From Nannocystis bainbridge (GTDB lineage Bacteria; Myxococcota_A; Polyangia; Nannocystales; Nannocystaceae), in NCBI RefSeq assembly GCF_028368995.1, contig NZ_JAQNDL010000001.1, positions 2,752,001 to 2,816,000 of the forward strand: DNA of 64,000 nucleotides, given 5' to 3'. Shown here piece after piece: positions 663 through 32,601 of this stretch. The translations under genes and the position numbers were made by a program. The notes under the pieces were generated by a model, which searched no databases, had not been told where the DNA came from, and saw only the letters and a program-made list of their open reading frames with translations. Position 1 is the stretch's first letter. Each line of letters begins with the position of its first letter.

Positions 663-3059
663 ATGCTGCTGGCGTGGTTGCTCCTGCTGTCGGCGCCCGA
701 CGCGGACCGCCACGATTGTCGCGCCGGCGGGGCGCCGAGCTGCCCGCCGGGAATGACCGGACCGGCCTGCGACCTGGCCTGCGTCGGCGAGCGCTGCGAT
801 CACGCGCTGTACTGCCACGACGACGGCGACACCTACGGACTGTCGACATTCGGGGCCCGGCTGTTCACGCTGGGCCCTGGCGAGCCCGACTGGCTGGTGC
901 GGCTGCGGCTGCTGCAATTCATCGTCGCTCACCCGCGCGACCTCGGCCTGCGCGACGGGCTGCGCGCGGGCGACCTCGGCGTGGCCGAGACGCCGGTCGT
1001 GCGCCGCGAGGCCGGCGCGCTGCGGCTGCTGCGATTGCGTCAGCGCTACCGCGAATGGCCGGTGTACGGCGCCGACGCCACCTTGACGCTGATCGCCGAT
1101 CGCACCGGCGTGATCGGCATCCGCGGCGCGATCGCCGACGGCCGCGACGACTACGCCTTCGCCGCCGCGCCGGCCGCCCGCGACGTCGCCGCCGCCAGCG
1201 TGCTGGCCCACGCGGGCGCGCGCACGGGCCTCGCAGAGGGCGACCTGCGGCTGGTGAACCTGCGCCTGGTCGCGTTCCCGCGGGCGCGCGCGCTGGGCTG
1301 GGCCGCCGCGGTGTTCCACGGTCCGGCGCGGGTCGCCGACGTGGTCGTGGCCGCCGATCCGCGGGCCGCGAGCTTGCCGCTGCTGGCGTACGTCGACCCG
1401 CGCGGGGCCGGGCTCGGCGACACCGTGGCGTTCGCGGTGCGGGCCGAAGATCTGGCCAGCGACATCCACGACGCGACGATCGAGACGACGCTGGTGCCGA
1501 CCACCGGCTCGCTGGCTGACGGCAGCGTGCGGCTGGCCGACGCGCGCGTGGTGCTGATCGACGCCGCCGGGGCCACCTCGCGCGCGGAGGCGCTGGCGAG
1601 CCCGATCCACGGCCAGCAAGGCGCCGAGTTCGACGCTTACCCCGACTCGCGTGAATACGGGCTGCAGAACACCTATTCGCTGCTGCGCCGCTACTATGAT
1701 CATACCGACGCGATCTTGCACGGCCGCTGGGACAGCGCGATGCCGGCGCTGGGGCTGGAGAGCGCGCTGCCGGCGGGGCAGTTCGCGCCGCGGCTGATCG
1801 CCGCCGCCGACCCGGCCGTGCCGCTGTGCGGGGCGCAGGCCAGCTGGTGCGTGACGTCGGCCTGGGCCGGCGCGAGCGACGAGCCGCCCGAGGCGCTGCG
1901 CCACCCGCTCGGCGCCGGCCCGTACGAGGTCACCGGCGCGATGTACCTCAAGGGCACCAGCGCCTCGCCGTCGGTGCTGCCGCACGAGTTCGGCCACTTC
2001 GTCGATCTGTTCGCCGCGCCGGGCCTGATGTTCGAGCCGTTCGTGTGCATGCCGTGCGCGGCCGACTGCTACCCGGGCACCACCGACGACGTGCTGCCGC
2101 TGTCCGAGACCTACGCCAGCTTGATGGCGCTGTGGTTCTACGCCGTGCTCTACCCGGCGGCCGGGCAGGCCGATTCGTGCGTGACGCTGACGTCGCTCAG
2201 CCTGGGCGAGAACCGCAACCCGCACAACGCCGCCTGCCGACCCGGGGCCAGCGAGTTCTCGCGCTTCGTCGCCGACGACGACCCCGCCTGCGGCAACGGC
2301 GAGTCCAACTTCCCCGACCGCTGCGACTTGCCGACGCCGATCGACATCGATTTCGCCGAGGGCACCGGCCTGTGCGACCGCGGGCTCGGCTACGCGCTCG
2401 ACAGCTGGTTCCAGGCCTTCTGGGAGCTGCTGCACGGCGAGACCTGCGCGACCGCGCCGCCATACGACTGCACGCCCCTGCCCGCGCTGAGCGCCGCGCC
2501 GGCCGCCGACGCGATCGGCCGCGCGCTCCTCTACGCGGCCCAGGTGTCGAGCGCGACCTACCGCGGGTTCGCCGACGACGTCGCCACGTACGTCGCCTGC
2601 AACCACGGCGAGGCGGCCTACCTCGAGCTCAACGAGGTCCTGTGCCACCACCACATCCGCCCGTGCGACGCGCCGACGCCGGCCGTCTGCGACTTCTGCG
2701 GCGACGGGGTCCGCAGCGGCGGCGAGGCCTGCGACGGCGGCGACCTCGGCGGCCAGACCTGCGCGGACCTCGGCCTCGGCGCCGGCGACCTGACGTGCGA
2801 CGCGGCGTGTGAGTGGGTGGTCGATGGCTGCATGTCCGAAGAGACAGGCGATGACACGACCACCTCGTCGGGCGCCGAGGAGCTGCCGACCACCGGCGCG
2901 AGCGACGAGCCGACGAGCGACGCGGGCGCCACGTTCATCGTCCCACCGGCGACCGGCGGCGAGCACGGCGAGCCCGGCTGCGCGTGCGCGAGCGGCCCGG
3001 ACGGCGCGTGGTGGCTGACCGCGCTGGCGCTGCTGCGGCGGCGCCGACGCGTCGCGTGA
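663..3059 (+). CDS. Secreted zinc metalloprotease (M4/M36-like) with Cys-rich repeat and MYXO-CTERM-like tail
   Basis: Signal peptide, FTP-like propeptide (LRLRQRYREWPVYGA), HEFGH plus downstream E (LSETYA), CGDGVRSGGEACDG repeat, Thr/Ser linker, GCAC...LALLRRRRR C-terminus. Confidence 0.75.
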   Translation: MLLAWLLLLSAPDADRHDCRAGGAPSCPPGMTGPACDLACVGERCDHALYCHDDGDTYGLSTFGARLFTLGPGEPDWLVRLRLLQFIVAHPRDLGLRDGLRAGDLGVAETPVVRREAGALRLLRLRQRYREWPVYGADATLTLIADRTGVIGIRGAIADGRDDYAFAAAPAARDVAAASVLAHAGARTGLAEGDLRLVNLRLVAFPRARALGWAAAVFHGPARVADVVVAADPRAASLPLLAYVDPRGAGLGDTVAFAVRAEDLASDIHDATIETTLVPTTGSLADGSVRLADARVVLIDAAGATSRAEALASPIHGQQGAEFDAYPDSREYGLQNTYSLLRRYYDHTDAILHGRWDSAMPALGLESALPAGQFAPRLIAAADPAVPLCGAQASWCVTSAWAGASDEPPEALRHPLGAGPYEVTGAMYLKGTSASPSVLPHEFGHFVDLFAAPGLMFEPFVCMPCAADCYPGTTDDVLPLSETYASLMALWFYAVLYPAAGQADSCVTLTSLSLGENRNPHNAACRPGASEFSRFVADDDPACGNGESNFPDRCDLPTPIDIDFAEGTGLCDRGLGYALDSWFQAFWELLHGETCATAPPYDCTPLPALSAAPAADAIGRALLYAAQVSSATYRGFADDVATYVACNHGEAAYLELNEVLCHHHIRPCDAPTPAVCDFCGDGVRSGGEACDGGDLGGQTCADLGLGAGDLTCDAACEWVVDGCMSEETGDDTTTSSGAEELPTTGASDEPTSDAGATFIVPPATGGEHGEPGCACASGPDGAWWLTALALLRRRRRVA

Positions 3060-3076: not shown

Positions 3077-3128
3077 GGACATGTCCACCGGGACATGCCC
3101 TTTCAACCATGTCTGAAACGACATGCCC
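3077..3128. repeat. Array of 14-bp TGTC-N6-GACA elements (4 CATG cores)
   Basis: CATG at 3080, 3094, 3108 and 3122; convergent intergenic region. Confidence 0.9.
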
Positions 3129-5490: not shown

Positions 5491-5601
5491 TCACATGTCC
5501 TTCGGGGCATGCTCTCCACGAGGTGCTCTCTCTCAAGGACATGTCCTCCGCGACATGTCCTCTTCAGCATGCGCGAGAGGACATGCTCCGAAGAGCATGT
5601 C
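5491..5601. repeat. Array of 14-bp TGTC-N6-GACA elements
   Basis: CATG at 5494, 5508, then 5540, 5554, 5568, 5582, 5596; convergent junction. Confidence 0.9.
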
Positions 5602-8230: not shown

Positions 8231-10774
8231 TCACTCCCAGTGGATCTCGACCAACTTCAGGGCGCCGCCCGGGTCGAGCTCCGACCACGCGGGGCCCTCG
8301 TAATACGTGAGGTAGTCGACGGCGCCGCCGGCCTGCGCGAGCTCGGGGTGGAGCAGCGCGTCCTGGATCGGCGGCGCGCCCTGCAGCGCGGGCGGCCGGT
8401 ACAGCTCGGCCGCCTCGGACCACGGTCCCTCGAGCTGCGGCGCGGTGCGCAGGACCACGACCGGTTCGTCGCGGTCGGCGTAGACCGCCACGAAGGCGCC
8501 GGCGTGGTCGCTCCAGTGCACGCTCATCGCCCCGGCGCCGGCGAACACGGCGCTCGCGCGGCGCGCCGAGGCCGACCAACCGGCGCCGGTGTAGTGGCGC
8601 CAGGCCCCGCGCTCCAGCGCGTGCGCCAGCGGGGCGCGCATCAAGTTGCAGGCGCCGCGCCGACCGCCACAGGTGAACGCGTACAGGTGATCGCCGACGC
8701 TGAGGGCCGCGGCGACGGGCAGCTCGTCGGCGCCGAACAGCAGGGTCGGCTCGGCGCTGCCTTCAGCGACCGCGGGGCGGACTGGCCGGCCGGCGAGGTC
8801 GTCGCGCCACACGGCGATCGAGCTGCCGACGTGCTGGTTGTCGGCGTTGTCCTCGAACTGGATGACCTTGCGGTAGAAGATCAGGACACGCTGGCGCGCG
8901 TGGTCGTGCACCATCGGACCTGGCCAGAGGGACACCCGCGGGCAATCGTAGCTGGCGAGGCACGCGCCGTCGTCGTACGCGAGCCCGTAGCGGGCCTCCC
9001 CGGCGGCGTACGGCAGGAATTCCGGGTCGACCGCGGCAGGGATCGCAAACGGGTGCAGGCCGTCGCGCGCGTCGAGGTCGTCCGTGACCGCGGCGGCCGT
9101 GACGTCCTGGCTCGGCGAGCCCACGTCGGTGGTGACGCGGAACCCCCACAGCGCCCGCGAGCCGAGGCCCACGCTGTGGCCGCCCTGCTCGACAGCGGGG
9201 CCCCCGTCCCGCAGCGGAAGGTCGCCCAGCGGGAGCGCCTCGGCCACCTGCAGCGCCGGCGGAACGCCGCAGCCCGCCAGCATCACGAGACATGTCCCAG
9301 CGAGCATGCCCGATCGGGCATGTCCTTTTCGCCATGCTTTTTTAAACATGTCCGAACAGCCCGCTGATGCGAGCCCCCGCTCGCGCAAGCCGGACGCCGG
9401 GCCGGCCGGCGCGGCGCCGTGACCCGACCTTTTGAACATGCCCGAACGAGCCGACGGGGTCGGCCGCTCGGCAGAGGCGGGCGGCGGCGTCGGTCCGCTC
9501 GGCTCGCCATTGCAATCTGTCCTTTCGCGCATGCCTGAACGAGCCGCCGAGCGGCGCCGCCGCCCGAGCCCGAGCAGACCGAGCAGCAGCAGCGCGGGGG
9601 CGCCCGGCTCGGTGCTGCGGCAGCCGCAGCCCTCGGCGGCCAGGCAGGTGGCGGGCGGCTGCCAGTCCGAGTCGACGGGGACGAAGTTGAGCGGCGTGAC
9701 CTCGCGGGTGCCCGCCCACGAGAACTCGAGGCTGGCCGACATATCGCCGAGGCTGCCGCGCAGCACCAGCTCGCGCGGGCCCTCGCGCTCCTCCGGCGCG
9801 ACGCAGTCGTCGGCGAGCACGATCTGCTCGGGCTGCGTGAGCTCCGGAATGTACGCGATGTCGCCACCGGCCACCGACCACGTGACCGGCAGGCCGAACA
9901 CCAGGTCGTCGCCGGCGTCGCGCGCGACGGCGCGGGCCCCGAACGGCACCGAGGTGCGGCCGATGAGCGGCGCGTCCGAGTCCTCGAGCACGAGATAAGC
10001 GCCGGCCAGCTCGAGCGAGGTGACGGTGTCCGCCGCCACCCCGGTGATCCGCGCGAGCGGCCAGCTGTGACCGGCGAAGTTGAAGGTCGCCTCGGCCTCG
10101 GTGCCCTCGAAGGTGACGATCGCGAGGTGCTCGCTCGGGTAGGTGATCGGCGGCCGCCCGCGCGTGGTCGTCCAGGTGACTTCGGCCGGCTCGGACTGGC
10201 GGGCGACGACGTGACGGGTGCCGCGCTCGAACAGGTTGACGCCGACCTCGAGCTGCTGGCCGGCGACCAGCTTGAGCTCGCGCGGCAGCGACTCGAGCCA
10301 GTCGGCGCCGAAGGTGGTGACGATCGGGTTGTCGCGCACCGCGTGTCGCATGACCATGCCGTCGAGCCAGGGCGCGGCGCGAGCCTCGACCTCGGCGGGG
10401 TCGACCACGCGCATCGTCACGCGATCGGGCGGCTGCCCCGGGGCGCCGCAGGTCGCGTCGACGGTCCACACCACCTCGCCGGGCGCCGCGGCGACGAAGC
10501 AGCCCCCGTCGGCCGTGACGGGGCCGCTGGCGTGCACGCCCGCGTCGTCGCAGGTGGCCGCGTCGGGGCAGGCGTCGCACGCGAGCTGCGGGCAGATCCG
10601 CGTGCCCGTGAGCACCAGGTACGGCGCCTCCCAGTAGGTGTCCGCGAGGTAATCACCGCGCAGATCGAGGTCGTCGACCGAAAGGCGAAAGTCACCGCGC
10701 TCGCTGATCATCTCGGGCGGATCGCAGGCCGTGAACACGACTGCACAGGATGCCATCAACCAGACACGTCCCAT
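8231..10774 (-). CDS. Composite ORF: N-terminal lipoprotein with internal MYXO-CTERM (10774 to about 9555) in frame with a DUF4185-like beta-propeller lipoprotein (9307-8231)
   Basis: Lipobox FTAC at the N-terminus; GCGCRS...LLLLGLLGLGRRRR in mid-ORF; second lipobox MLAGC; DUF4185-like motifs WPGP, WRHYTGAGW, MSVHWS, RTAPQLEGPWS, HPEL. Confidence 0.65.
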   Translation of the reverse strand: MGRVWLMASCAVVFTACDPPEMISERGDFRLSVDDLDLRGDYLADTYWEAPYLVLTGTRICPQLACDACPDAATCDDAGVHASGPVTADGGCFVAAAPGEVVWTVDATCGAPGQPPDRVTMRVVDPAEVEARAAPWLDGMVMRHAVRDNPIVTTFGADWLESLPRELKLVAGQQLEVGVNLFERGTRHVVARQSEPAEVTWTTTRGRPPITYPSEHLAIVTFEGTEAEATFNFAGHSWPLARITGVAADTVTSLELAGAYLVLEDSDAPLIGRTSVPFGARAVARDAGDDLVFGLPVTWSVAGGDIAYIPELTQPEQIVLADDCVAPEEREGPRELVLRGSLGDMSASLEFSWAGTREVTPLNFVPVDSDWQPPATCLAAEGCGCRSTEPGAPALLLLGLLGLGRRRRSAARSGMRERTDCNGEPSGPTPPPASAERPTPSARSGMFKRSGHGAAPAGPASGLRERGLASAGCSDMFKKAWRKGHARSGMLAGTCLVMLAGCGVPPALQVAEALPLGDLPLRDGGPAVEQGGHSVGLGSRALWGFRVTTDVGSPSQDVTAAAVTDDLDARDGLHPFAIPAAVDPEFLPYAAGEARYGLAYDDGACLASYDCPRVSLWPGPMVHDHARQRVLIFYRKVIQFEDNADNQHVGSSIAVWRDDLAGRPVRPAVAEGSAEPTLLFGADELPVAAALSVGDHLYAFTCGGRRGACNLMRAPLAHALERGAWRHYTGAGWSASARRASAVFAGAGAMSVHWSDHAGAFVAVYADRDEPVVVLRTAPQLEGPWSEAAELYRPPALQGAPPIQDALLHPELAQAGGAVDYLTYYEGPAWSELDPGGALKLVEIHWE
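9288..9352. repeat. Array of 14-bp TGTC-N6-GACA elements (5 cores)
   Basis: CATG at 9291, 9305, 9319, 9333 and 9347. Confidence 0.9.
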
Positions 10775-16981: not shown

Positions 16982-17701
16982 TCAATCGAGACCCAAACGC
17001 TGCATGTCGTCCTCGTCGAGGCCGAAGTAGTGGCCGATCTCGTGGAGGATGGTGACCTCGACCTGCTCGCGCAGCTCGTCCTCATCGGCGAACATCGCCA
17101 GCAGGTTGGCGTAGTAGAGGACGATCCGGCTCGGGGCGGCGGCGGCCTCGAGGCCGCGCTGATGGAAGTGGTCGGGGCCCTCGAAAAGGCCCAGGGCGCG
17201 CGGGTCGAAGCCGTCCTGCACGAGGTACTTGGCCGGCCGGGCCTCGAGCACCACCGGGACGTTGCCGAGGCGACCCTTGAATTCTTCGGGCAGGTCCTCG
17301 AGGACAGCCTCGGCGACGCCGGCGATGAAGCGCTGGTCCTCCTTGGTGCCGATGCCGGCGCCGATGTCGTCGTGGGCGTCGAGCCGGAGGACCTCGAGGT
17401 AGTGGCGGATCATCTTCGGGCGCTCTTCCATGGCCTCGTGGACCTGGGCGAGCGCGTGGTGAGCGTCAGCGAACCGCGGGTTGCGCTCGAGGGCGCGGCG
17501 GAAGTGCGGCCCGGCGGCCTCGGGGCCCTCGAGCGTCCACACGAGGTCGCCGCGGAAGTAGTGGATCTCGGGGTGGTCGTGCCAGCCGGGACTGGCCTCG
17601 CCCAGCAGCTCCAGCGCTTCGGCGGGGTCGTCGGCGGCGACGTCGGCGACGTCGTCGAGGAAGGCGTGGAGGGCGGGATCTTCGGGCGGCCGGGACTTCA
17701 C
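16982..17701 (-). CDS. TPR-containing zinicin-like metallopeptidase
   Basis: TPR-like helices, LGLFEG, RIVLY and VTILHEIGHYFGLDEDDM; GTG start overlaps the upstream TGA (GTGA). Confidence 0.88.
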   Translation of the reverse strand: MKSRPPEDPALHAFLDDVADVAADDPAEALELLGEASPGWHDHPEIHYFRGDLVWTLEGPEAAGPHFRRALERNPRFADAHHALAQVHEAMEERPKMIRHYLEVLRLDAHDDIGAGIGTKEDQRFIAGVAEAVLEDLPEEFKGRLGNVPVVLEARPAKYLVQDGFDPRALGLFEGPDHFHQRGLEAAAAPSRIVLYYANLLAMFADEDELREQVEVTILHEIGHYFGLDEDDMQRLGLD

Positions 17702-19182
17702 GGGCGGGGCTCCAAGGCTGGCGGGGCGAGGACGGTGATCTTGGAGATGCGCTCGACGAAGGCGCCGCGCGAGGTGCCGCGCCCGAGCTCGAGGTCGCTG
17801 ACGTGCACGCCGTCGACCTTGAGCAGGGTCTCGCGCTCGCCGGCGGGGGCGCCGTCGGGACGGCCGGGGCACGGGACCAGGTACTCGGCGAACGAGTGGA
17901 TCGCCATCGGCACGCCGGCGTCGTCGCGGCCGAGGTACAGCATGATGTGCCCCGGGAAGTGCAGCAGGACCACGCCGCGCCGGTGGGCGGCGTCGATCCG
18001 GCGCAGCCGCTCGGGCTCGGGCAGATCGGGCGCGAGGTCCTCGGCGACGCCGGCCAGCGCCTGGTCGCTGGTGTGCCGCGGCAACACCAGGCCGAGGCCG
18101 CCGAACATGTCCATGAGGAAGCGCGAGCAGTCGCGGCCGCCGGCGTAGTCGCCCCAGCCGTAGGGCCGGTGGAGGAACGAGAAGGCCTCGGTCAGCACGG
18201 CCCGGCGGGTGAGCGGCCGCTCGGGGGCCGAGACCGCGGCGGCGTCGACGGGCCGGGTGACGACGCCGCCAGGGCCGGCCAGCAGGACCTCGCCGCGGCG
18301 CCCGGCGGTCGGGAGCAGGCTGGCGAATGGGACATGTATCTTCGGACCTGCCCGATTCGACATGTCCTCGAGGACATCGAAGTCGCGGGCGGCGCGGACG
18401 AACGGGCCGCCGGTGAAGCGGCGCACGTGCTCGGCGGCGATCGGCGGCGAGAGGGCGGCGGTGGCGAGGTCGATCCAGCCCATGACGTAGGGGGTGCGGG
18501 CGAGCGCGAGGCCGCCGTCCCAGGCGCGGAGGATCTGCACCGGCTCCTGCGCGCGGGCCATGCTGCACAGGTTGCGGTCGAAGGCGAGGTCGCGGCTCGG
18601 GGTGTAGTAGGGCTCGCGCTGGGGCGCGCAGCGGATCGGGATCAGGTCGAGGGCGACGCGCACCTCGGACGGCAGCTCGGCGAAGGCGCCGGCGTCGAGC
18701 ACGGGGGTGAGCGCTGCGACCTGCGCCGGGGCCATGGCGGCGCCGTCGGGGTTGACGTAGGCGGCCGCGACGAACTTGCCGCGCAGGTAACCGAGGCGGG
18801 TGTTGAGGTCGTCGGCGAGGCGCGCGGGGTCGACGGGCGCGAGCAGGTCGGCGCGGGCGCTGGCGCCGAAGACGTCGCGGCGGGCGATCCGGGCGTTGTG
18901 GGCGGCGAGCTCGCGGGCGCTGAAGAGCGGGCGGTCGAGGTCGGCGACGGCCGCGGTGCGCGTGAGCCAGTAGTCGAGCTGCTCGTGCTCGGGGCCGGTG
19001 CGCGGGAGCGGATCGACGGCGACGCCGTTCGCCGGGCAGGCAACTGCCGGGACGACGGGCTCGGGGGCGGACGCGGCGCTGGCCGGCGGCGGAGCCCGAG
19101 GTGCCGGCTCTGGCGGCGGGGCGCCACAGGCGAGCCCGAGGAGGCCGCCGAGGAGAGCACCGCGGGAGAAGGCGGACTGCAC
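17698..19182 (-). CDS. NlpC/P60 family lipoprotein with SH3-like domain (peptidoglycan endopeptidase)
   Basis: Lipobox GLAC; PYGWGD...RDCSRF, LPRHTSDQ, GHIMLYLG and AIHS motifs. Start is inferred. Confidence 0.85.
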   Translation of the reverse strand: MQSAFSRGALLGGLLGLACGAPPPEPAPRAPPPASAASAPEPVVPAVACPANGVAVDPLPRTGPEHEQLDYWLTRTAAVADLDRPLFSARELAAHNARIARRDVFGASARADLLAPVDPARLADDLNTRLGYLRGKFVAAAYVNPDGAAMAPAQVAALTPVLDAGAFAELPSEVRVALDLIPIRCAPQREPYYTPSRDLAFDRNLCSMARAQEPVQILRAWDGGLALARTPYVMGWIDLATAALSPPIAAEHVRRFTGGPFVRAARDFDVLEDMSNRAGPKIHVPFASLLPTAGRRGEVLLAGPGGVVTRPVDAAAVSAPERPLTRRAVLTEAFSFLHRPYGWGDYAGGRDCSRFLMDMFGGLGLVLPRHTSDQALAGVAEDLAPDLPEPERLRRIDAAHRRGVVLLHFPGHIMLYLGRDDAGVPMAIHSFAEYLVPCPGRPDGAPAGERETLLKVDGVHVSDLELGRGTSRGAFVERISKITVLAPPALEPRP

Positions 19183-19694: not shown

Positions 19695-21110
19695 GTGAGG
19701 CTGTCCTCCGGGCGTGCGGCGCTGGCTCTGGCGCTGGTCTCCGGCTGCGCCGGGCGGCCGCCCGAGGAGCGCGGGCGCACCGAGGCGCGGCCGGGCGCGG
19801 GCTCCGGGCAGGTTGCTGCGGAACATGACTCATCGGACATGTCCGAACAGACAGCCTCGGTGACGGCACCCGGCGAAGGCATGAGCGGCCCGCGGCCTCT
19901 TGAAAAAGAGTCTGAAAGCACGGGTGCCGCGAGCGACGCGCAGGCTCCGTCGCAGGCAGGCTCGGAGGGCGCGGCGAGCAAGGCCCCTCCCCTGCCCTCG
20001 CCGGGGCCGATGCCGGCCGACTTTTTGAAATTTTCCCGGGCGTGCGAGCCGGGCGAGCGGATCGTGGTGGCGGCGGTCGGCGACCTGCTGCTGCACCACG
20101 AGCTGCAGATCCAGGCGACAGTGGCGACGAATCGGTTCCGCGTGCTGTGGGCCGGAGTCGAGGACCTGCTGGCGGCGGCCGATCTGACCTACGCCAACCT
20201 CGAGGTGCCGCTGGCGGCCGGGGTGCTGCGCTCGGGCGAAGAGGTCGCCGACCCGGGGCTGGTGTTCGACCGCAAGGTCTACACGGCGTATCCGCGGTTC
20301 AACGTCCACCCGTCGCTGGCGCTCGACCTGGTGGCGAGCGGCTTCGACGTGGTGTCGACCGCGAACAACCACGCGCTCGACCGCGGGGCGCTCGGGGTCG
20401 ACAAGACGCTGACGGCGCTCGGCGCGGCCAGGCTGCCGCACACGGGGACGCGCGCGCGCGGCGGGGCCGGGCCATGGCACGCGGTGACGAAGGCGGGCAA
20501 GTTCACGGTGGCGTGGCTGGCTTGCACGCTGCACACCAACCAGGTCGCCGACGAGGCGGGCCAGGTGCTGCGCTGCTTCGACTCGCCGACGGCGGTGGCC
20601 GAGATGGTGCGCGCGCTGGCGCGGACGCCGGGGATCGACGCGGTGATCGTGACGCCGCATTGGGGCAAGGAGTACGCGCCGACGGCGACGAAGCAGCAGA
20701 CGGAGTTCGCCCGCCGCTGGGCCGAGGCCGGCGCGACGGCGATCGTCGGCAACCACCCGCACGTGCTGCAGCCGTGGGAGTCGCTGACGACCGGCGACGG
20801 CCGCGAGGTGCTGGTCGCCTACTCGCTCGGCAACTTCGTCAGCCACCAGCCGGAGCTGCCCAAGCGCTCGACGGCGATCCTGTACTTCGGCCTCGGCCGG
20901 GCGGCGACGGGCCCGGCGTTCGTGACCGGGGCGGGCTATGTGCCGGTGCACGTGCGCCAGACGGGCGACGAGTTCTTCGCCGAGGCGATCGATCGCGTCG
21001 GCGGGCCGGCCGACAGCCGCGCGCACGTGGTCGCCAACTTCGGCGCGGCCAACCTGCTGGCCGCCGCGGCGCCGATCGAGGTGACGCCGCAGTGCCCACG
21101 ACGCGAGTGA
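19695..21110 (+). CDS. CapA/PGA_cap family metallophosphatase-fold lipoprotein
   Basis: GD, NLE, ANNHALD, PHWG, GNHPH and YSLGNF motifs; GGAGG RBS before GTG; lipobox VSGC. Confidence 0.9.
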   Translation: MRLSSGRAALALALVSGCAGRPPEERGRTEARPGAGSGQVAAEHDSSDMSEQTASVTAPGEGMSGPRPLEKESESTGAASDAQAPSQAGSEGAASKAPPLPSPGPMPADFLKFSRACEPGERIVVAAVGDLLLHHELQIQATVATNRFRVLWAGVEDLLAAADLTYANLEVPLAAGVLRSGEEVADPGLVFDRKVYTAYPRFNVHPSLALDLVASGFDVVSTANNHALDRGALGVDKTLTALGAARLPHTGTRARGGAGPWHAVTKAGKFTVAWLACTLHTNQVADEAGQVLRCFDSPTAVAEMVRALARTPGIDAVIVTPHWGKEYAPTATKQQTEFARRWAEAGATAIVGNHPHVLQPWESLTTGDGREVLVAYSLGNFVSHQPELPKRSTAILYFGLGRAATGPAFVTGAGYVPVHVRQTGDEFFAEAIDRVGGPADSRAHVVANFGAANLLAAAAPIEVTPQCPRRE

Positions 21111-22420: not shown

Positions 22421-22450
22421 GAGCCTCGCCCGGCGTCGGCGCTCTGCGAT

Positions 22451-22538
22451 GGTGCCCCAAAGGACATGCCTTTTAGAACATGCCCTTTGGAACATGTCGG
22501 ATAGGGCATGCTCTTTCGAGCATGCCCTCTCGAGCTAG
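22451..22538. repeat. Array of 14-bp TGTC-N6-GACA elements
   Basis: CATG at 22465, 22479, 22493, 22507, 22521; in-phase variants GGTG at 22451 and CTAG at 22535 (the latter contains the stop codon of the adjacent gene). Confidence 0.9.
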
Positions 22539-24223
22539 CGGCGACCGGCCCGGGGCGGGCGCGGGGGGGCCGAGGGGCGCGGGGCCGACGGTCGCGGGGT
22601 CGGGCGCGCTTCAGGGCGCGGGCTCGGACGCGGGGTCGGCCGCGACTCGGGCTGCGGCCGCGGGGTCGGACGCGGGCGCGACTCGGGCTGCGGCATCGGC
22701 CGCGACTCGGGCTGCGGCCGCGGCCGCGATTCGGGCACGGGGCGCGGCTGCGGGCGCGGCTGCGGGGTCGGCCGCGACTCGGGCTGCGGCCGCTCCGGTC
22801 GCGGGCTCGAGCCGGGCTCGGGGAACGGCCGCGGGGTCGGCCGCGTGCTCGGGCCGGGGTCCGGCCGCGGGCTGGGGTCCGGCCGCGTGCTCGGGCCCGG
22901 GTCCGGCCGCGGGTCGGGCCGCGAGCCGGGCCGCGGGATCGGCACCGGACGGTCCGGATACGTCGGGTCCGGCCGCGAGCCGGGCGTCGGCCGCGGGATC
23001 GGCACCGGACGGTCCGGATACGTCGGGTCCGGCCGCGAGCCAGGCGTCGGCCGCGGGATCGGCACCGGCCGGTCCGGGTACGTCGGGTCCGGCCGCGAGC
23101 CGGGCGTCGGCCGCGGGATCGGCACCGGCCGGCCCGGATCGGGGGTCGTGCCCGGGATCGTCGGATCGGGCCGCGTCGGGTCGGGCCGCGTCGGATCGGG
23201 CCGCGGGATCGGCACCGGCCGGCCCGGATCGGGGGTCGTACCCGGGATCGTCGGATCGGGCCGCGTCGGATCGGGCCGCGGGATCGGCCGGCCCGGATCG
23301 GGGGTCGTGCCCGGGATCGTCGGATCGGGCCGCGTCGGATCGGGCCGCGTGCCCGGATCGGGCCGATCGGGCAACGGCTGGCCGCCGGGCCCGGGCACGG
23401 GGCGCGTGCCGGGCGGCGGGACCGGGATCGGCTGGCCGCCGGGGCCGGGCACCGGGCGCGTGCTCGGCGGCGGGGGCGGGATCGGCTGGCCGCCGGGGCC
23501 GGGCACCGGGCGCGTGCCGGGAGGGACCGGCTCGGGCAACGGCTGGCCGCCGGGGCCCGGCATCGGCCGCGAGCCCGGGAAATCGGGGCGGTCCGGGTAC
23601 GGCTGGTCGGGGTACGGGCGATCGGGGTACGGGCGGTCCGGGTACGGCCGGCCGCCGGGGCGCGGGTACGGGCGCACGCCGGGGCGCCCGCCGGGGATCG
23701 GCACGACCGGGCGATAGCTGTGGTCGGCGTAGCTGTGGAAGCCGTCGGTGCGCGCGCCGCCCCAGTACCAGCCTGCCCCGTAGCAGCCGTCGGCCCAGCT
23801 GTACTGGCGCGCCGGATAGGCGCCGTTCCACACGGAGATCAGCGGCGTGGGCGGGGTCCAGTAGTAGACCCACGTGTGCATCTCCGGGCTGAAGAAGACG
23901 AGATGGCCCTCGATGTTGTAGTAGGGCCGCCCGGCCCAGGTGACCCGCGGGTACGAGTCGATGGGCATCGTCGACAGGTGGGTGTATTCGACCAGCTCGA
24001 GCTGCTGGCTGTCGTACAGCTCGTAGCCGACGACCGCGCTGGTCCGGGTGCCGCACACCGACTCGCATGTGCCAGTGCTGGTGCTGTGGTACCCGCCGAC
24101 CGCGGTCACCCGGGTGTCCCGGGCCTGGGGATAGACGCTGTAATAGGTGCAGCCGGAGCTGCCGAGGAGGGCCGCGACGGCTATCGCGGCGAGCGAGAGG
24201 AACCGAAACCGAGAACCACTCAT
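22535..24223 (-). CDS. Proline/arginine-rich repetitive lipoprotein
   Basis: Lipobox SSGC, Tyr/Trp-rich N-terminal domain, then PDRPY, PGPGGQP, PDPTR and near-identical 60-bp PDRPVPIPRPTPGSRPDPTY repeats. Confidence 0.8.
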   Translation of the reverse strand: MSGSRFRFLSLAAIAVAALLGSSGCTYYSVYPQARDTRVTAVGGYHSTSTGTCESVCGTRTSAVVGYELYDSQQLELVEYTHLSTMPIDSYPRVTWAGRPYYNIEGHLVFFSPEMHTWVYYWTPPTPLISVWNGAYPARQYSWADGCYGAGWYWGGARTDGFHSYADHSYRPVVPIPGGRPGVRPYPRPGGRPYPDRPYPDRPYPDQPYPDRPDFPGSRPMPGPGGQPLPEPVPPGTRPVPGPGGQPIPPPPPSTRPVPGPGGQPIPVPPPGTRPVPGPGGQPLPDRPDPGTRPDPTRPDPTIPGTTPDPGRPIPRPDPTRPDPTIPGTTPDPGRPVPIPRPDPTRPDPTRPDPTIPGTTPDPGRPVPIPRPTPGSRPDPTYPDRPVPIPRPTPGSRPDPTYPDRPVPIPRPTPGSRPDPTYPDRPVPIPRPGSRPDPRPDPGPSTRPDPSPRPDPGPSTRPTPRPFPEPGSSPRPERPQPESRPTPQPRPQPRPVPESRPRPQPESRPMPQPESRPRPTPRPQPESRPTPRPSPRPEARPTPRPSAPRPSAPPRPPRAGRR

Positions 24224-24267: not shown

Positions 24268-25686
24268 TCACTTCCCGGCCACGTCTCGGTCCTCGAAGGC
24301 GGACCACCCTCGCTGGTCGCCCGCGCGCGGTCCCCAGCCCGCGGCGGCGATCGGGACGCCCAGCTCGAGGGCGACAAAGTCGAGGAATTCTCGGCTTTCA
24401 GGGCTATCCGGGCCGTCCCAGCCCGGCAGCCGGCGCCACCGCGGGCGCGCCTGGAGGAGCCCGCGGGTGGCCTCGGCGCGGAGCTCGAGGCTGCCGGTGA
24501 CCGGGGCGAACTCGCGCACGACGGCGCCGTCGATGAAGACCCAGGCGTCGCAGACGGAGATCTGCCGCCGCCCGGCGAGGCTGTCGAGATGCGTGACGAC
24601 GAGGCCATCGACGCGACCGGCGATGGCGAGGCCGAGGCGGGCGGCGACGAGGTCGAACCAGCCGACGCGCATGGGGCCCTGCCACGGACCCGGGAGGTTG
24701 TGCGGCTCGGGGAGCGCGAGCGCGGGGTCCTCGGCGACGAAGGGCCCGGGGCCGTGGCGGGTGCCGTAGGCCCGCAGGACGCCGAGGCGGCGCAGCGGGG
24801 CGCTCGCGGGGACCTCGGCGCACAGGGCCTCGGCCTGGGCGAAGCGCACGGATGAAGGGGTGACGTGGGGGAAGAAGCCGTGCTCGGCGTCCAGTAGCGC
24901 GCCGTGGGCCCCCTCGAACACGACCGCGGACGGGTCAGCCGCGAGGGCGGCGCGCAGCTGCTCGCCCTCGTCGACGGCGAGCCGCGCGGCGATCGCGAGG
25001 TAGGCGTCGGCGACGACGTCGGCGAGGTCGGGGCGCGCGAGCTCGGCGACGAGCGGGGCGATCGCGGGCACGGAGGCGCGCTCGGCCAGCTGCTCGGCGC
25101 GGTCGAGCTTGAGCAGCTGGATCTGCCGCAGCGCGCGGACCAGCGCCGGACGGTCGCCCTTGAGCGCGCCGACGCGGAGGACCACGGCGTGCGGGTTGTG
25201 AGCGTCGCGCCAGGCCGGGCCGACGCCGAGGCCGCAGCTGCCGTGGCGATCTGTCCCTCGGGACAGCTCCTCGATGCGGCCGAGCAGGCGGTGGAACGGG
25301 GTGACGACGACGCAGCGGACGTCGACGACGAGGCCGGACCAGGGGTCGACGAGGCCCGCCGCCTGCAAGGCCTCGGCCTCGCGCGCCAGCGCCAGCGGCT
25401 CGACGAGCATGAAGCGGCTCAGGCAACTGCGCGCCCCGGCGAGCGCGCCGGCGCCGAATTGGGCGAAGCAGTGGACACGGCCGCCGGGGTCGACGACGTG
25501 GTGGGCCGCCTGCGGGCCGCCGTTGAAGCGGACCACCAGCGGCCGCCCGCGTCGGCGCGCGAGGGCGTCGACGACGGCGCCCTTGCCCTCGTCGCCGAAG
25601 CCGCAGCCGAGGACGGCGACAGGTCCTTCGGGACAGGTTCCAAGTGCCAGGTCACCCACCACGGACGCGCCGGGGCAGGCTGGCAC
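24268..25686 (-). CDS. Divergent adenylosuccinate synthetase-like protein
   Basis: GFGDEGKG, RFNGGPQAAH, HGSCGLGVG, FEGAHGALLD, PHVTPS, AYGTRHGPGPF, RVGWFD and THLD motifs. Start may be the GTG near 25660. Confidence 0.85.
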   Translation of the reverse strand: MPACPGASVVGDLALGTCPEGPVAVLGCGFGDEGKGAVVDALARRRGRPLVVRFNGGPQAAHHVVDPGGRVHCFAQFGAGALAGARSCLSRFMLVEPLALAREAEALQAAGLVDPWSGLVVDVRCVVVTPFHRLLGRIEELSRGTDRHGSCGLGVGPAWRDAHNPHAVVLRVGALKGDRPALVRALRQIQLLKLDRAEQLAERASVPAIAPLVAELARPDLADVVADAYLAIAARLAVDEGEQLRAALAADPSAVVFEGAHGALLDAEHGFFPHVTPSSVRFAQAEALCAEVPASAPLRRLGVLRAYGTRHGPGPFVAEDPALALPEPHNLPGPWQGPMRVGWFDLVAARLGLAIAGRVDGLVVTHLDSLAGRRQISVCDAWVFIDGAVVREFAPVTGSLELRAEATRGLLQARPRWRRLPGWDGPDSPESREFLDFVALELGVPIAAAGWGPRAGDQRGWSAFEDRDVAGK

Positions 25687-25807: not shown

Positions 25808-25950
25808 CCTGGCTCTCGGGACATGTCGATGCGGAGACGGCGGCGCGCGAGTCACGGGTAACATGTCTCTCGGGACATGATGAATCGTGAACGGTTCGAT
25901 AACATGTCCATCAGGACATGATGAATGCGACATGTCCATCAGGACATGTC
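25808..25950. repeat. Array of 14-bp TGTC-N6-GACA elements
   Basis: Pairs at 25808/25822 and 25862/25876; run at 25903, 25917, 25931, 25945. Confidence 0.9.
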
Positions 25951-25987: not shown

Positions 25988-26740
25988 TCACGCGCCGTAG
26001 TCGAGCGTGCCGCTGACCACCAGCGCCGCGTGGCGCTTGAGCCAGGCCGTCACCGCGTCGCGGTGGTGCAGCTCCTGGACCAGCGGCTCGCGCAGCTTGT
26101 GGACCAGCGCGGTCTCGCCGAAGTCGTCGGCGATGTCGACCAGCTGCTCCCACGACGCGCTGTCGACCAGCTCGGCGACCAGGTGAGCGTGCAGCGCCTG
26201 CGGCAGGGTCGTGCGTGGGTCGGACACCACCTGGACGATGCCGGCCAGCTCGACGCCCGCGAGGTCGGCCGAGGGCGTGACCGCGGTCGGGTCGGCGCCG
26301 AGGTTGATGAGGACGTCCTGCAGCAGCGCGAAGTGGTGGGCCTCGTCGGCGCGGAACTCGGCCAGCTCCGCGAGCGTCGGCCCGCCCTCCCAGCTGCCCT
26401 GCGCCTCGCACTTGGCGATCAGCGCGTCGAACAGGCGCACGCCGGTGCGCTCGAACGCGAGGCGCTCGCCGAGCTTGTCGAGCAGCAGGTGGACCCGGTG
26501 CCGCGGCACCGGCGTGCCGCCGGCGTTCTCGACCACGCGCAGGCTGGCCGGCGCCGGCATGTGACCGATCAGCCCGACCTCGCCGGCGTACTGGCGCCGC
26601 ACCTCGGCGAGCGCGCGGGCGCAGCCGGGTGAGCTCGGGGCCTCGCGCGCTCCCTCGACCACGGCGGGTCCGTCGGTCGGCGAGAGGTAGATGCCGGTGC
26701 GGTTGAGGGCGAGGTCGGTGGGTCTTTGGACGCGGTTCAT
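25988..26740 (-). CDS. Ferritin-like domain protein
   Basis: MNRVQ...NRTG, DKLGERLAFERTGVRL, DEAHHF, AELVDSASWE and QELHH diiron-type ExxH pattern; ATGA overlap with the upstream gene. Confidence 0.85.
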   Translation of the reverse strand: MNRVQRPTDLALNRTGIYLSPTDGPAVVEGAREAPSSPGCARALAEVRRQYAGEVGLIGHMPAPASLRVVENAGGTPVPRHRVHLLLDKLGERLAFERTGVRLFDALIAKCEAQGSWEGGPTLAELAEFRADEAHHFALLQDVLINLGADPTAVTPSADLAGVELAGIVQVVSDPRTTLPQALHAHLVAELVDSASWEQLVDIADDFGETALVHKLREPLVQELHHRDAVTAWLKRHAALVVSGTLDYGA

Positions 26741-30869: not shown

Positions 30870-30948
30870 GGACATGCTCCTCGGAGCATGTCCCCGAGAG
30901 CATGTCCAATGTGACATGCTCTTTTGAACATGCTCTTCGGTGCATGAC
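30870..30948. repeat. Array of 14-bp TGTC-N6-GACA elements (6 cores)
   Basis: CATG at 30873, 30887, 30901, 30915, 30929 and 30943; convergent junction. Confidence 0.92.
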
Positions 30949-30984: not shown

Positions 30985-32601
30985 TCACTCGACCCGCGCG
31001 CCGACGAACGCGTGACCCCGGAGGTCGCTGGCGGGCGCGTCGACGTCGGCGAACAGGAACGTGAACCCGCCGAGCTCCGGCCGCCCCGCGGCGACGAAGC
31101 GATCGTCGCCCGCGTGCTCGAGCCCGACTTCGAACCCGAGCCCCGACAGCCGCAGGCCGGCGCCGTGCGCCGCGATCGTCACGGCCGCGCCGGAGCGATC
31201 GGCGCGGTACGTGCCGGCGTAGCGTCCAGCGGGGCCCATCGGCGCAGCAGGCTCGGGCGCCACGTCCAGGACCTCTTGCAGGATGGTGACGAGGGTCGCC
31301 CGCAGCGGCACGCCGTCGTTGCTCAGCACCGCGGCGTAGAACCCTCGCTCCGGCACGAAGATCAGGTCGGCCGCGAAGTCCCCGGTCGCGCCGCTGTGAC
31401 CGTAGATCGCCGGCCCGCCGGTACTTGTCCGCACGCGCACGCCGAGCCCGTAGCGCTCGCCGGGCCGCTCGCCGGTCGGCACCTCCGCAGCCAGCAGCTC
31501 GCCGCGCGCCGCCAGCGACAGCGGCGAGCGGCCGGGATCGAAGAGGCCCTGCACCGCCGTCACGAGCTCGGCCGCCGAGACGATCGCGCCGCCGGCGGGG
31601 ATGGTCCAGCGCGCGGCGCCTGTCCCGAGGGCCAGGTCTTCGACGACGCTGAAGGCCCGGGCCTGTTGGCCGCGCCCGAGGTGGCCGCAGGCGGCACCGG
31701 TCTGCAGGGCCCTGTGCGGATCGATCACCGCGTCCCCGAGCCCGAGCGGCGCCAGCAGCTCGTCGACGAGCAGGCGCGAGAACTCGACCCCCCGCAGCCG
31801 CGCCAGGGCGGCGCCGACGAGCGCGTAGCCGTCGCTCGAGTAGCTCCACAGCGCCCCGGGCTCGCGCCACAGCGGCCGCTCGCCGAGCCCGAGCAACCAG
31901 TCGGCGCCGAGCTCCAGCGGCGACGGGTCGGGCACGCCGGCGGTGTGCGTCAAGAGCTGCCGCCAGGTGATCGCCGCGGCCCGCTCGTCGACCCCCGCGG
32001 CCAGCTCGGGCAGCACGCGCGTTACCTCGTCGTCGAGCCCGAGGCGCCCGGCGTCGACCTGCCGCAGCACCAGCGCCGCGGTCCACAGCTTGGTGATCGA
32101 GCCGACGCGAAAGCGCGTGGTCGCGGTGACGGCCTGTCCTTCGAGACAGGCGCTGCCGGCGGTGGCGACGAACGGCGCGCCGTTACCCTCGACGATCGCC
32201 AGGCTCGCGCCGACCCCCGCGAGGTTGTGATGCTCGGCGCAAAAGGCCGCGACGATCCGGGCGTAGCGCGCCGGCGCGCCGGCGTTGCGCCGCAAGCACG
32301 CAGCCCGGCGATCGTCACCGGGCCGCGAGGTCGCATCCTCTCCTCGCGCATCGGAGCCCGCAGGCGTCGCATCCTCTCCTCGCGCATCGGAGCCCGCAGC
32401 CGTCGCATCCTCTCTTCGCGCATCGATCCCCGTGCGCGTCGCGTCGTGCGCATTACCCTCGGCGTCCGACTGCCGCGACGCCGCCTCCTGGCGCCCATCG
32501 ATCGACGCGTCGCTCGGGCCTTGACCCGACGCCCTCTCCGTAACCCCTGGCTCGCCGCACGCGAGCAGGAGCGCGCACCCGCCGGCCCGCGCGAGACGCA
32601 T
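30985..32601 (-). CDS. Serine hydrolase / beta-lactamase class C-like lipoprotein
   Basis: FRVGSITK (SxxK), LLTHTAG, YSS, YGLG and HSG motifs; lipobox LLAC; 39-bp repeats (DARGEDAT) in the N-terminal linker. Confidence 0.9.
   Translation of the reverse strand: MRLARAGGCALLLACGEPGVTERASGQGPSDASIDGRQEAASRQSDAEGNAHDATRTGIDARREDATAAGSDARGEDATPAGSDARGEDATSRPGDDRRAACLRRNAGAPARYARIVAAFCAEHHNLAGVGASLAIVEGNGAPFVATAGSACLEGQAVTATTRFRVGSITKLWTAALVLRQVDAGRLGLDDEVTRVLPELAAGVDERAAAITWRQLLTHTAGVPDPSPLELGADWLLGLGERPLWREPGALWSYSSDGYALVGAALARLRGVEFSRLLVDELLAPLGLGDAVIDPHRALQTGAACGHLGRGQQARAFSVVEDLALGTGAARWTIPAGGAIVSAAELVTAVQGLFDPGRSPLSLAARGELLAAEVPTGERPGERYGLGVRVRTSTGGPAIYGHSGATGDFAADLIFVPERGFYAAVLSNDGVPLRATLVTILQEVLDVAPEPAAPMGPAGRYAGTYRADRSGAAVTIAAHGAGLRLSGLGFEVGLEHAGDDRFVAAGRPELGGFTFLFADVDAPASDLRGHAFVGARVE

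What the first reader, a model, noticed from the sequence alone, without database searches (positions are those of the whole stretch)
18330..18378. The same phased element is written inside protein-coding sequences
Seen: in-register runs inside CDSs at 18333/18347/18361/18375 (NlpC/P60), 19824/19838/19852 (CapA), 35464/35478/35492 (lycopene cyclase), 36430-36486 (ferritin-like), 43463-43491 and 44014-44042 (cusB), 45794/45808 (cusA), and 55055-55097, 55250-55292 and 55934-55962 (kinase). Single sites occur at about 2831, 25251, 32133, 37868, 51768 and 63263. They often coincide with A/T-ending codons that are unusual for this genome (GGA, CAT, ACA, AAA) and give recurring DMS/HVP/GHV/TCP peptides. 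Inference: selection acts at DNA level to keep sites every few kb even at a cost to codon usage. This favours an architectural binding site over a mobile repeat.
Basis: partly seen in the sequence, partly recalled or inferred. Interest (0 to 1): 0.75.

Follow-up and report, generated by a model that had tools for sequence, protein, structure and literature searches.

The report
Phased palindrome repeats written inside genes
A 14-base palindrome that this bacterial genus carries in thousands of copies, mostly as head-to-tail arrays just after genes, is also written into protein-coding sequence by point changes and kept there despite rare codons, which points to an undescribed sequence-specific system acting on the DNA.

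Summary
The unit is the 14-bp palindrome TGYCC-N4-GGRCA. Abutting copies create the CATG seen every 14 bases. The genome has 1987 exact copies, against 0-16 at other spacings. Nine lie in coding sequence. The "CapA" run lies upstream of that gene.

Genome-wide, coding interiors hold 601 exact units against 20 in shuffles. Rare A/T-ending codons make up 39% of codons in motif cores, against 5% elsewhere.

Coding copies arose by substitution, not insertion. Their synonymous positions are conserved across five sister species.

Arrays sit just after stop codons and occupy 46% of convergent intergenic regions.

The inference of sites kept every few kb is not supported. Spacing is clumped, and coding copies do not fill gaps.

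The element is confined to Nannocystis-type genomes. The genome has no RAYT transposase, and my searches found no description of the element.

My best reading, unproven, is tandem binding sites for a dimeric protein at gene ends. An RNA hairpin role remains a live rival.

The parts
18335..18376 (.). Three abutting 14-bp units inside the NlpC/P60-domain gene 17698..19182 (-), aa 268-285, in the segment before the NlpC/P60 domain (aa 339-420)
   Evidence: 37.0 bits. Conserved in 5 sister species. Absent from 6 more distant orthologues, which are only 4 aa shorter here.
35466..35493 (.). Two units inside the lycopene cyclase gene 34599..35777 (-)
   Evidence: Pfam PF05834; 28.9 bits, 0 in shuffles vs 103 observed genome-wide; conserved.
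36432..36487 (.). Four units (two strong) inside the 444-aa gene 35870..37204 (+), aa 186-207, just before a weak ferritin-like signal
   Evidence: 41.0 bits for units 1-3; conserved.
43465..43492 (.). Two units inside the CusB/HlyD-type gene 43085..44506 (+)
   Evidence: 28.7 bits; conserved in 5 of 5 relatives.
44016..44043 (.). One exact unit plus a weak neighbour in the same CusB-type gene
   Evidence: 17.2 + 3.5 bits. The GGGACATGTCCGA junction after the unit is conserved while the unit's own stretch (44016-44029) and the sequence upstream vary.
45796..45809 (.). One unit bounded by two CATG junctions inside the AcrB/CusA-type gene 44525..47815 (+), aa 422-431
   Evidence: 16.0 bits. Nearly invariant in 6 species, including synonymous positions.
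55057..55098 (.). Three units inside the Ser/Thr kinase-TPR gene 53412..56318 (-), between the kinase and TPR parts
   Evidence: 35.1 bits; conserved.
55252..55293 (.). Three weaker units in the same kinase gene
   Evidence: 26.0 bits; 2.2 in shuffles vs 363 observed genome-wide.
55936..55963 (.). Two units in the kinase domain part of the same gene
   Evidence: 23.3 bits; 1.8 in shuffles vs 460 observed.
2833..2846 (.). Single unit (1 mismatch) in gene 663..3059 (+)
   Evidence: 16.6 bits.
25252..25265 (.). Single exact unit with C/G flanks (CTGTCC-N4-GGACAG) in gene 24268..25536 (-)
   Evidence: identical in 6 species.
32135..32148 (.). Single unit near the 5' end of gene 30985..32295 (-)
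   Evidence: Half-sites kept in 5 of 6 species while the 4-nt spacer differs in 5 of 6.
51770..51783 (.). Single exact unit near the start of gene 51721..53307 (+)
   Evidence: identical in the 3 species that could be aligned.
19826..19853 (.). Two units upstream of the PGA_cap (CapA-like) gene, in a divergent intergenic region and not in coding sequence
   Evidence: present in all 5 relatives.
3080..3125 (.). Array of 4 junctions filling the convergent intergenic region 3060-3165
5494..5600 (.). Arrays (2 + 5 junctions) in the convergent intergenic region 5482-5616
   Evidence: A 5-junction array is present in all 5 relatives, with different spacers.
9291..9350 (.). Array of 5 junctions. My caller put it inside a merged ORF, but it most likely lies between two minus-strand genes.
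   Evidence: left flank score -16.4.
22453..22535 (.). Array just after the stop of gene 22535..24109 (-)
25862..25948 (.). Arrays after the stop of gene 25988..26740 (-). Present only in this genome, with a 28-bp internal duplication.
30873..30946 (.). Array of 6 junctions filling the convergent intergenic region 30860-30984
   Evidence: Folds at -44.7 and -47.6 kcal/mol on the two strands.
39584..39655 (.). Array filling the convergent intergenic region 39573-39676
49404..49477 (.). Array just after the stop of gene 48050..49390 (+)
51424..51508 (.). Array just after the stop of gene 49569..51410 (+)
53337..53408 (.). Array filling the convergent intergenic region 53308-53411

Best explanation
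**What it is.** The element is a sequence-defined 14-bp palindrome, TGYCC-N4-GGRCA. It is read as such on duplex DNA, most likely by a dimeric protein (inferred). Dimers line up in strict 14-bp register on head-to-tail arrays of 2-12 or more units.

**Where it acts.** Its main sites are arrays that begin a few bases after stop codons and fill the space between convergent genes. There it would mark or enforce gene ends, for example as a transcription roadblock or a boundary (inferred).

**The coding copies.** These are the same site, made by point substitutions in weakly constrained protein segments. They are then held by a force acting on the DNA, at the price of rare codons and of recurrent DMS/GHV/TC peptides.

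**Shown:** the unit, the register, the location, the origin by substitution, the conservation and the taxonomic range.

**Inferred:** the protein and its effect.
For: **Strict geometry.**
- N4 has 1987 copies, N3 has 16 and N5 has 5.
- The register of 14 gives 3736 CATG pairs, against 72 at 13 and 262 at 15.

**Half-sites conserved, spacers free.**
- In alignable non-coding sequence, cores are 88.7% identical and spacers 41.7%.
- Orthologous intergenic arrays keep 5 junctions while their spacers differ.

**Little sign of base pairing as the selected feature.**
- Covariation between pairing positions is weak: odds ratio about 1.8, with 631 C..A pairs among 3736.
- Spacers at mirror positions in an array are not complementary (1.14 vs 1.13 matches, p = 0.93).
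- Loops show no strand preference.

**Coding copies are real, substituted and conserved.**
- 601 exact units vs 20.4 in shuffles.
- 59 of 81 are gap-free against paralogues.
- Third positions are identical at 69 of 83 sites vs an expected 0.646.
- There is no sense-strand bias in coding arrays (T..G 19 vs C..A 17).

**Gene-end habitat.**
- 641 of 1393 convergent intergenic regions carry an array, against 585 of 4233 tandem and 127 of 1419 divergent ones.
- In tandem regions the median distance is 44 nt after the stop.
- The longest arrays fill whole convergent regions.

**Precedents.**
- 404 of 1427 isolated exact units carry the C and G flanks that give the letters of the CviR box CTGNCCNNNNGGNCAG (passage in PMC12114271; flanks).
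Against: - No binding protein was identified. No gene is flanked by unusual numbers of arrays.
- In tandem intergenic regions read in the sense direction, T..G pairs outnumber C..A pairs 245 to 143 (p = 2.5e-7), and 189 to 144 at the next pair. Spacers show no such skew. This is what G-U pairing in a transcript would give, and a pure DNA-level reading does not predict it.
- A protein that marks gene ends has no obvious use for about 800 sites inside genes.
- Coding sites do not even out the spacing.
- Gene calls are my own and crude.
- Conservation was measured in one 64-kb window and 5 relatives only.
Confidence: 0.45

Rival explanations
1. The element acts as RNA or single-stranded DNA structure at gene 3' ends. 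Transcribed arrays fold into stable hairpins that end transcription in both directions or protect 3' ends from exonucleases. The fixed letters reflect common descent or a hairpin-binding factor. Coding copies are tolerated by-products.
For: - Location just after stops and in 46% of convergent regions, with depletion from divergent ones.
- Sense-strand excess of G-U-compatible pairs: 245 vs 143 (p = 2.5e-7) and 189 vs 144. Spacers show no skew.
- Strong folds: -44.7 kcal/mol with z -7.1, and -29.6 kcal/mol with z -5.7.
- No canonical hairpin-plus-T-run terminators in 25001-45000: 0 found vs 3.4 +/- 2.1 in shuffles. Something else must end transcripts there.
Against: - No T-run follows the arrays.
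- Covariation is weak, with 17% C..A pairs.
- Loop length is fixed at exactly 4 and the unit register at exactly 14, which hairpins do not require.
- Spacers at mirror positions are not complementary.
- Hundreds of coding copies are conserved at synonymous positions, with no sense-strand bias.
Confidence: 0.25
2. The motif is kept by a molecular drive like that of DNA uptake sequences. A sequence-biased step in DNA uptake or recombination favours alleles that carry the motif, so it accumulates everywhere selection on proteins allows.
For: - Genus-limited, thousands of copies.
- About 30% of exact units lie in coding interiors (607 of 1987).
- Made by substitution, at less conserved residues: identity to paralogues is 30% vs 40% in controls.
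- Recurrent peptides and a reading-frame bias of 176/158/64.
- These points match the abstract of Findlay and Redfield 2009 (PMC2817400).
- ComEC and DprA family genes are present, as in most bacteria.
Against: - Known uptake sequences are single, non-palindromic motifs (recalled). A drive on single motifs does not predict abutting arrays in exact 14-bp register, nor placement a median of 44 nt after stops.
- Here the motif forces rare codons, whereas that abstract links uptake sequences to preferred codons.
- Competence and uptake bias are untested.
Confidence: 0.1
3. It is a small mobile repeat of the REP/BIME or MITE kind that copies itself into new places. It is tolerated mainly after genes and now and then inside them.
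For: - High copy number, palindromic, enriched in convergent regions.
- Gains and losses between species, at 25537-25987 and 32296-32611.
- Some unit duplication: adjacent units at least 13/14 identical in 43 of 2819 pairs, vs 0.25% of random pairs.
Against: - No Y1/RAYT transposase in the genome, while the same search found the family in 6 of 14 control genomes.
- Coding copies are substitutions: only 4 of 81 look inserted, and the NlpC case shows a 12-nt change only.
- Cores are conserved while spacers drift.
- No GTAG or CGTC end tag of the kind described in the abstract of PMC3733652 (listing).
Confidence: 0.05
4. The coding matches are a by-product of amino-acid or codon composition and have no meaning of their own.
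For: Shuffles that keep the amino acids retain some excess at distance 14 (50.8 vs about 16 at neighbouring distances). The protein sequence itself therefore carries part of the signal.
Against: - 333 vs 50.8 +/- 5.5 pairs.
- 601 vs 20.4 +/- 4.1 exact units.
- Runs of 3 units at 24 bits or more: 362 vs 6.8.
Confidence: 0.01

Closest known systems
REP/BIME elements (repetitive extragenic palindromes moved by RAYT transposases)
   Same: Short palindromes in hundreds to thousands of copies, often clustered, lying after genes and between convergent genes, and able to form hairpins. Roles in supercoiling, termination and mRNA stability have been proposed for them (abstract of PMC3733652, seen in the listing).
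   Different: - No RAYT/Y1 transposase here.
- No GTAG/CGTC tag.
- Units abut in an exact 14-bp register.
- About 30% of exact units lie inside genes and arose by substitution, whereas REPs are extragenic by definition.
DNA uptake sequences (USS of Pasteurellaceae, DUS of Neisseria)
   Same: - A lineage-specific short motif, vastly over-represented.
- A large share lies in coding sequence at poorly conserved residues.
- It raises the frequency of the peptides it encodes (abstract of PMC2817400).
   Different: - This motif is palindromic and forms phased tandem arrays.
- It is concentrated right after stops.
- It costs rare codons.
- No evidence on uptake.
Tandem operator arrays of ribbon-helix-helix repressors (MetJ met-boxes)
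   Same: Abutting copies of a short palindrome, each read by one dimer with contacts between neighbours. [quoted passage not shown]
   Different: - The unit is 14 bp, not 8 bp.
- There are thousands of sites at gene ends and inside genes, not a few promoters. Arrays are depleted from divergent regions.
- No protein is known.
LuxR-type box of CviR, CTGNCCNNNNGGNCAG
   Same: Isolated units with C and G flanks (CTGTCC-N4-GGACAG, for example 25251-25266) fit this 16-bp palindrome letter for letter (passage in PMC12114271). 404 of 1427 isolated exact units have these flanks.
   Different: - CviR controls a small quorum-sensing regulon at promoters.
- Here there are thousands of sites, half with A/T flanks that make arrays.
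- No link to any LuxR-type protein was tested. The likeness shows only that a helix-turn-helix dimer can read such a site.
Intrinsic (hairpin plus U-tract) terminators
   Same: Position just after genes, and strong hairpin potential on both strands.
   Different: No U-tract, a fixed sequence, and a fixed loop and register.

Membership tests
REP/BIME (RAYT-associated) | A cognate Y1 (RAYT) transposase gene in the genome | tested here: not met
   PF01797 search of the whole genome gave 0 matches. The same search found the family in 6 of 14 control genomes. The genome is 90.5% complete.
REP/BIME (RAYT-associated) | Copies are extragenic | tested here: not met
   607 of 1987 exact units lie in called coding interiors. 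195 arrays have coding-like flanks on both sides. 81 are spanned by protein alignments.
REP/BIME (RAYT-associated) | GTAG or CGTC tetranucleotide at one end of the palindrome (abstract of PMC3733652) | tested here: not met
   The unit consensus and its flanks contain neither tag.
DNA uptake sequences (USS/DUS) | Lineage-specific short motif in great excess, with many coding copies at weakly conserved residues | tested here: met
DNA uptake sequences (USS/DUS) | The host takes up motif-bearing DNA preferentially | not testable with these tools
   Only ComEC (PF03772) and DprA (PF02481) family genes could be shown to be present. Most bacteria share these.
Intrinsic terminator | G+C-rich hairpin followed by a run of U | tested here: not met
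   Hairpins are present. The T fraction returns to about 0.12 after arrays. There are 0 consensus terminators in 25001-45000.
Tandem operator array for a dimeric DNA-binding protein (met-box-like) | Abutting palindromic units in fixed register with conserved half-sites and free spacers | tested here: met
Tandem operator array for a dimeric DNA-binding protein (met-box-like) | An identified protein that binds the units cooperatively | not testable with these tools
   No candidate emerged from the neighbourhoods of the longest or densest arrays.
Known RNA families (Rfam) | Match to a curated covariance model | tested here: not met
   The only match in the window is a tRNA at 483-555.

The most novel reading that the evidence does not exclude
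Nannocystis-type bacteria have a sequence-specific gene-end system. A protein polymerises in 14-bp steps on arrays of a palindrome placed right after stop codons, above all where two genes converge. There it stops or separates transcription in both directions, a bacterial counterpart of DNA-bound terminator or insulator factors. The same protein's sites inside genes are kept by selection strong enough to override codon usage and to shape protein sequence.
Probability: 0.3. Interest if true: 0.85.

Novelty: new variant of a known kind. Interest (0 to 1): 0.68.

Why it matters
**Why it matters if confirmed.**
- Thousands of copies of one 14-bp word, in exact register, would be a genus-wide cis-acting code with an unknown reader.
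- It could explain how very G+C-rich genomes without hairpin-plus-U terminators end or insulate transcription between convergent genes.
- The coding copies are a clean natural case of a DNA-level signal overriding codon choice and shaping protein sequence. So far that is best documented for uptake sequences.

**Practical uses.**
- The arrays are sharp markers of gene ends for annotating these 11-13 Mb genomes.
- They are a caution for gene callers, because arrays keep frames open and led my caller to merge genes at 9291-9347.
- They are something to preserve or avoid when recoding Nannocystis genes for expression.

Tried and rejected
- **First scoring matrix:** I replaced it with a palindrome-centred matrix.
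- **Promoter idea:** rejected, because arrays are rarest in divergent regions.
- **RAYT search:** nothing found.
- **Rfam:** nothing but a tRNA.
- **RNA sequencing runs:** no RNA holder listed, so no reads were laid.
- **Long-hairpin idea:** spacers at mirror positions are not complementary.
- **Master gene:** a search next to the longest or densest arrays found none.
- **Chromosome-scale pattern:** arrays occur along all five contigs, with only moderate over-dispersion (mean 8.7 and variance 19 per 50 kb).
- **Gap-filling by coding copies:** rejected.
- **Family assignment of the 444-aa protein:**
  - Pfam, NCBIfam and PDB sequence searches gave nothing at normal thresholds.
  - There are only a weak Phenol_Hydrox hit and an Atlas lead.
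- **Literature:**
  - Searches for the element found no description.
  - Term look-ups in PMC3696898 and PMC3733652 found no mention.
  - Supplements were closed. Those of genome papers on this genus, if any exist, were not seen.
- exceeded a size limit by one base and was repeated correctly.
Full report
**What is there.**

CATG recurs every 14 bases far more often than chance allows.
- In the window there are 44 pairs at distance 14, 27 at 28 and 17 at 42, against 1-5 at most other distances.
- In the 11.05 Mb, 71.5% G+C genome that holds the window, there are 3736, 2073 and 1586 pairs, against roughly 60-300 at other distances.

The junction consensus is GGRCATGYCC followed by four freer, A/T-richer bases. 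The more basic unit is the 14-bp palindrome TGTCC-N4-GGACA.
- It has 1987 exact copies, against 0-16 for every other spacing from N0 to N12.
- CATG is simply where one unit ends (..ACA) and the next begins (TGT..).
- Only 369 of the 1987 have CA and TG on both sides.
- 1427 stand alone, often with C and G flanks.
- The tool's own shuffles give 59 window matches with at most one mismatch, against 1.68 +/- 1.23 expected.

**Are the listed runs real, and are they in genes?**

My first, CATG-centred matrix penalised the outer halves of each run and made several look weak. I then used a palindrome-centred matrix, with amino-acid-preserving codon shuffles of 7.35 Mb of coding interior as the null. 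All ten runs stand out.
- Their scores of 16-41 bits were reached 0-15 times in shuffles and 19-682 times in the real coding sequence.
- The six single sites score 15.6-18.8 bits, reached 2-22 times in shuffles against 53-841 times observed.

The coding context was checked in several ways.
- The third-position G+C frame runs unbroken through 18330-18378.
- The host genes have Pfam domains: NlpC/P60, lycopene cyclase, CusB/HlyD-type, AcrB-type, and kinase plus TPR.
- The 444-aa protein at 35870..37204 is held letter for letter in the ESM Atlas. Substitutions between species peak at its third codon positions on both sides of the array. It has only a weak ferritin-like signal.

There is one correction. 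The run at 19824-19852 lies about 210 nt before the PGA_cap gene, in a divergent intergenic region.

In coding interiors (at least 150 nt from the called start and 45 nt from the stop):
- CATG pairs at 14 number 333, against 50.8 +/- 5.5 in 20 shuffles. Pairs at 28 number 122, against 30.4 +/- 3.6.
- Runs of three units at 24 bits or more number 362, against 6.8.
- Exact units number 601, against 20.4 +/- 4.1.

My gene caller is crude: 7663 genes, 80% coverage, and it merges genes at 9291-9347. I therefore filtered the arrays.
- Of 253 arrays in called interiors, 195 have coding-like flanks on both sides.
- 81 of those are spanned by a protein alignment to a paralogue.

- A/T-ending codons are 38.8% in motif cores, against 4.9% elsewhere and 5.2% expected for the same amino acids.
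- GGA, ACA and CAT are used for only 2.1%, 1.8% and 8.6% of their amino acids.
- The peptides are DMS (63), GHV (54), TC (39) and EHV (28).
- The Cys-requiring frame is under-used (frame counts 176, 158, 64).

**How the coding copies arose.**

In the NlpC/P60-domain protein:
- Five sister species share the array.
- A sixth, more distant species lacks 12 nt of it.
- Six more distant orthologues have unrelated sequence in the same loop and are only 4 aa shorter there.

Genome-wide:
- 59 of 81 arrays face no gap in the best paralogue, 68 face at most 25% gap, and 4 look like insertions (controls 1.3%).
- The segments are less conserved than controls (30% vs 40% identity) and more indel-prone (13.5% vs 4.5% gap).

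The sites are therefore written by substitution into tolerant stretches. Some growth by unit duplication occurs. Adjacent units are at least 13/14 identical in 43 of 2819 pairs, against 0.25% of random pairs.

**Conservation.**

I aligned the window to syntenic DNA of five relatives.
- Third codon positions in motif cores are 92.9% identical (n = 101), against 82.5% elsewhere (n = 15885). Spacer third positions are 66.7% identical (n = 9).
- By resampling, 69 of 83 core third positions are identical in all species, against 0.646 +/- 0.062 expected (P = 0.001).
- Site 32135 keeps its half-sites in 5 of 6 species while its spacer differs in five of six.
- In intergenic DNA all five convergent regions of the window carry arrays in this genome, and in every relative where the region could be located.
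- There are also gains and losses elsewhere: 25537-25987 is present here only, and 32296-32611 in three relatives only.

- Arrays occupy 641 of 1393 convergent intergenic regions (2.17 per kb), 585 of 4233 tandem ones (0.58 per kb) and 127 of 1419 divergent ones (0.23 per kb).
- In tandem regions they sit a median of 44 nt after the upstream stop and 197 nt before the next start.
- Convergent arrays are longer, with a mode of 4-5 units against 2.
- The longest arrays fill the whole gap from one stop to the other.
- No T-run follows them.
- The consensus scan finds no classical terminator in 25001-45000 (0 vs 3.4 +/- 2.1 in shuffles).

**Spacing.**

The inference of sites kept every few kb fails.
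- Arrays have a mean spacing of 5.7 kb with a CV of 1.44.
- All strong elements (2769) have a mean spacing of 4.0 kb with a CV of 1.28.
- Coding elements are no farther from non-coding ones than random coding positions: 2437 vs 2559 nt (p = 0.23) and 2204 vs 2305 nt (p = 0.19).
- 14.7% of the genome lies more than 5 kb from an element. Scattering the 798 coding elements at random over coding interiors would give 11.3 +/- 0.4%. Relocating them within their own genes changes nothing.

Density per kb rises with gene length up to 3-5 kb. Within 3-6 kb genes it is about 0.12 per kb within 1 kb of an end and about 0.24 per kb beyond that (56 vs 93 units). My hand calculation from the counts gives a chi-square of about 18. 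Linkers of multi-domain proteins could equally explain this. Genes over 5 kb are poor in sites (17 units in 40 genes).

**DNA or RNA?**

For recognition of duplex DNA:
- The exact N4 and the exact 14-bp register.
- Conserved half-sites with free spacers.
- Weak covariation of pairing positions, with an odds ratio of about 1.8 and 631 of 3736 C..A pairs.
- No loop preference by strand.
- No complementarity between mirror spacers.
- Coding copies conserved without strand bias.

For an RNA role:
- The gene-end location.
- Very stable folds.
- A sense-strand excess of G-U-compatible pairs in tandem regions: 245 vs 143 (p = 2.5e-7) and 189 vs 144. Spacers show no skew, which argues against a simple mutational bias.

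I rank protein binding first at 0.45 and RNA structure second at 0.25. The two are not exclusive.

**Range and novelty.**
- Three CATG in register occur 1005-1670 times in six large genomes of the window's genus, 2-62 times in five other (mostly fragmentary) genomes of the genus, and 0-4 times in 30 genomes of other genera.
- Across one genome for each of 185,579 species, the strict double decamer occurs in 78 stretches. Of these, 75 are in records titled Nannocystis, Nannocystaceae or a Myxococcales MAG, and three are singletons elsewhere.
- The genome has no RAYT transposase, and Rfam has no match.
- Three full-text searches and look-ups in two papers found no description of the element.
- The nearest known things are:
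  - REP/BIME elements;
  - uptake sequences (abstract of PMC2817400);
  - tandem met-box operators (passage in PMC3413123);
  - the CviR box CTGNCCNNNNGGNCAG, which isolated units with C/G flanks fit (passage in PMC12114271).

It meets the full definition of none of these. See the membership table.

**Limits.**
- Gene calls are my own.
- Conservation rests on one window and five related species, which are not independent.
- No RNA data were available.
- No binding protein is known.
- The script cap ended the statistics.

Noticed in passing
window 22095-22420: A tandem repeat with periods of about 47, 88 and 135 bp. Each copy contains the one-mismatch unit TGGCCTCTCGGACA (five copies). It lies in the long intergenic region 21934-22534, next to a normal array at 22453-22535.
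   Followed up: no
window 41046-41250: Three copies of a 66-bp repeat that embeds motif-like palindromes (GACATGTCCCCGGGACAGGTCAT), in the divergent region 40880-41519.
   Followed up: no
window 22600-23700: A dense nest of very G+C-rich tandem repeats (periods 15-120 bp, up to 96% matches). It overlaps a low-scoring called gene at 22535..24109 (-), so whether it is coding is uncertain.
   Followed up: no
window 59491-59570: Three copies of TGTCCCTTCGGCCA (a one-mismatch unit) starting at 59491, 59535 and 59557, that is 44 and 22 nt apart and not in the 14-bp register.
   Followed up: no
genome-wide (G000): Within a junction decamer the two variable positions avoid the G..C combination. GCATGC is under-represented (odds ratio about 0.55), while across the spacer like pairs with like (odds ratio about 1.8).
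   Followed up: partly
genome-wide (G000), genes of 3-6 kb: Coding units are about twice as dense more than 1 kb from either gene end as within 1 kb of an end. They are rare in genes over 5 kb. No explanation has been settled.
   Followed up: partly
genome-wide (G000): About 98 exact units carry the asymmetric flanks ACC...TCC (or the reverse complement), which suggests a longer sub-family of the repeat.
   Followed up: no
window 8231-10738: An open frame runs through the array at 9291-9347 and made my caller fuse two minus-strand genes. Arrays lack stop codons in most frames and can mislead gene prediction.
   Followed up: partly
window 32330-32442: A 36-bp tandem repeat, about 3 copies with 88-96% matches, in the intergenic region 32296-32611 upstream of gene 30985..32295 (-).
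   Followed up: no
window 483-555: A tRNA gene, the only Rfam match in the window.
   Followed up: no
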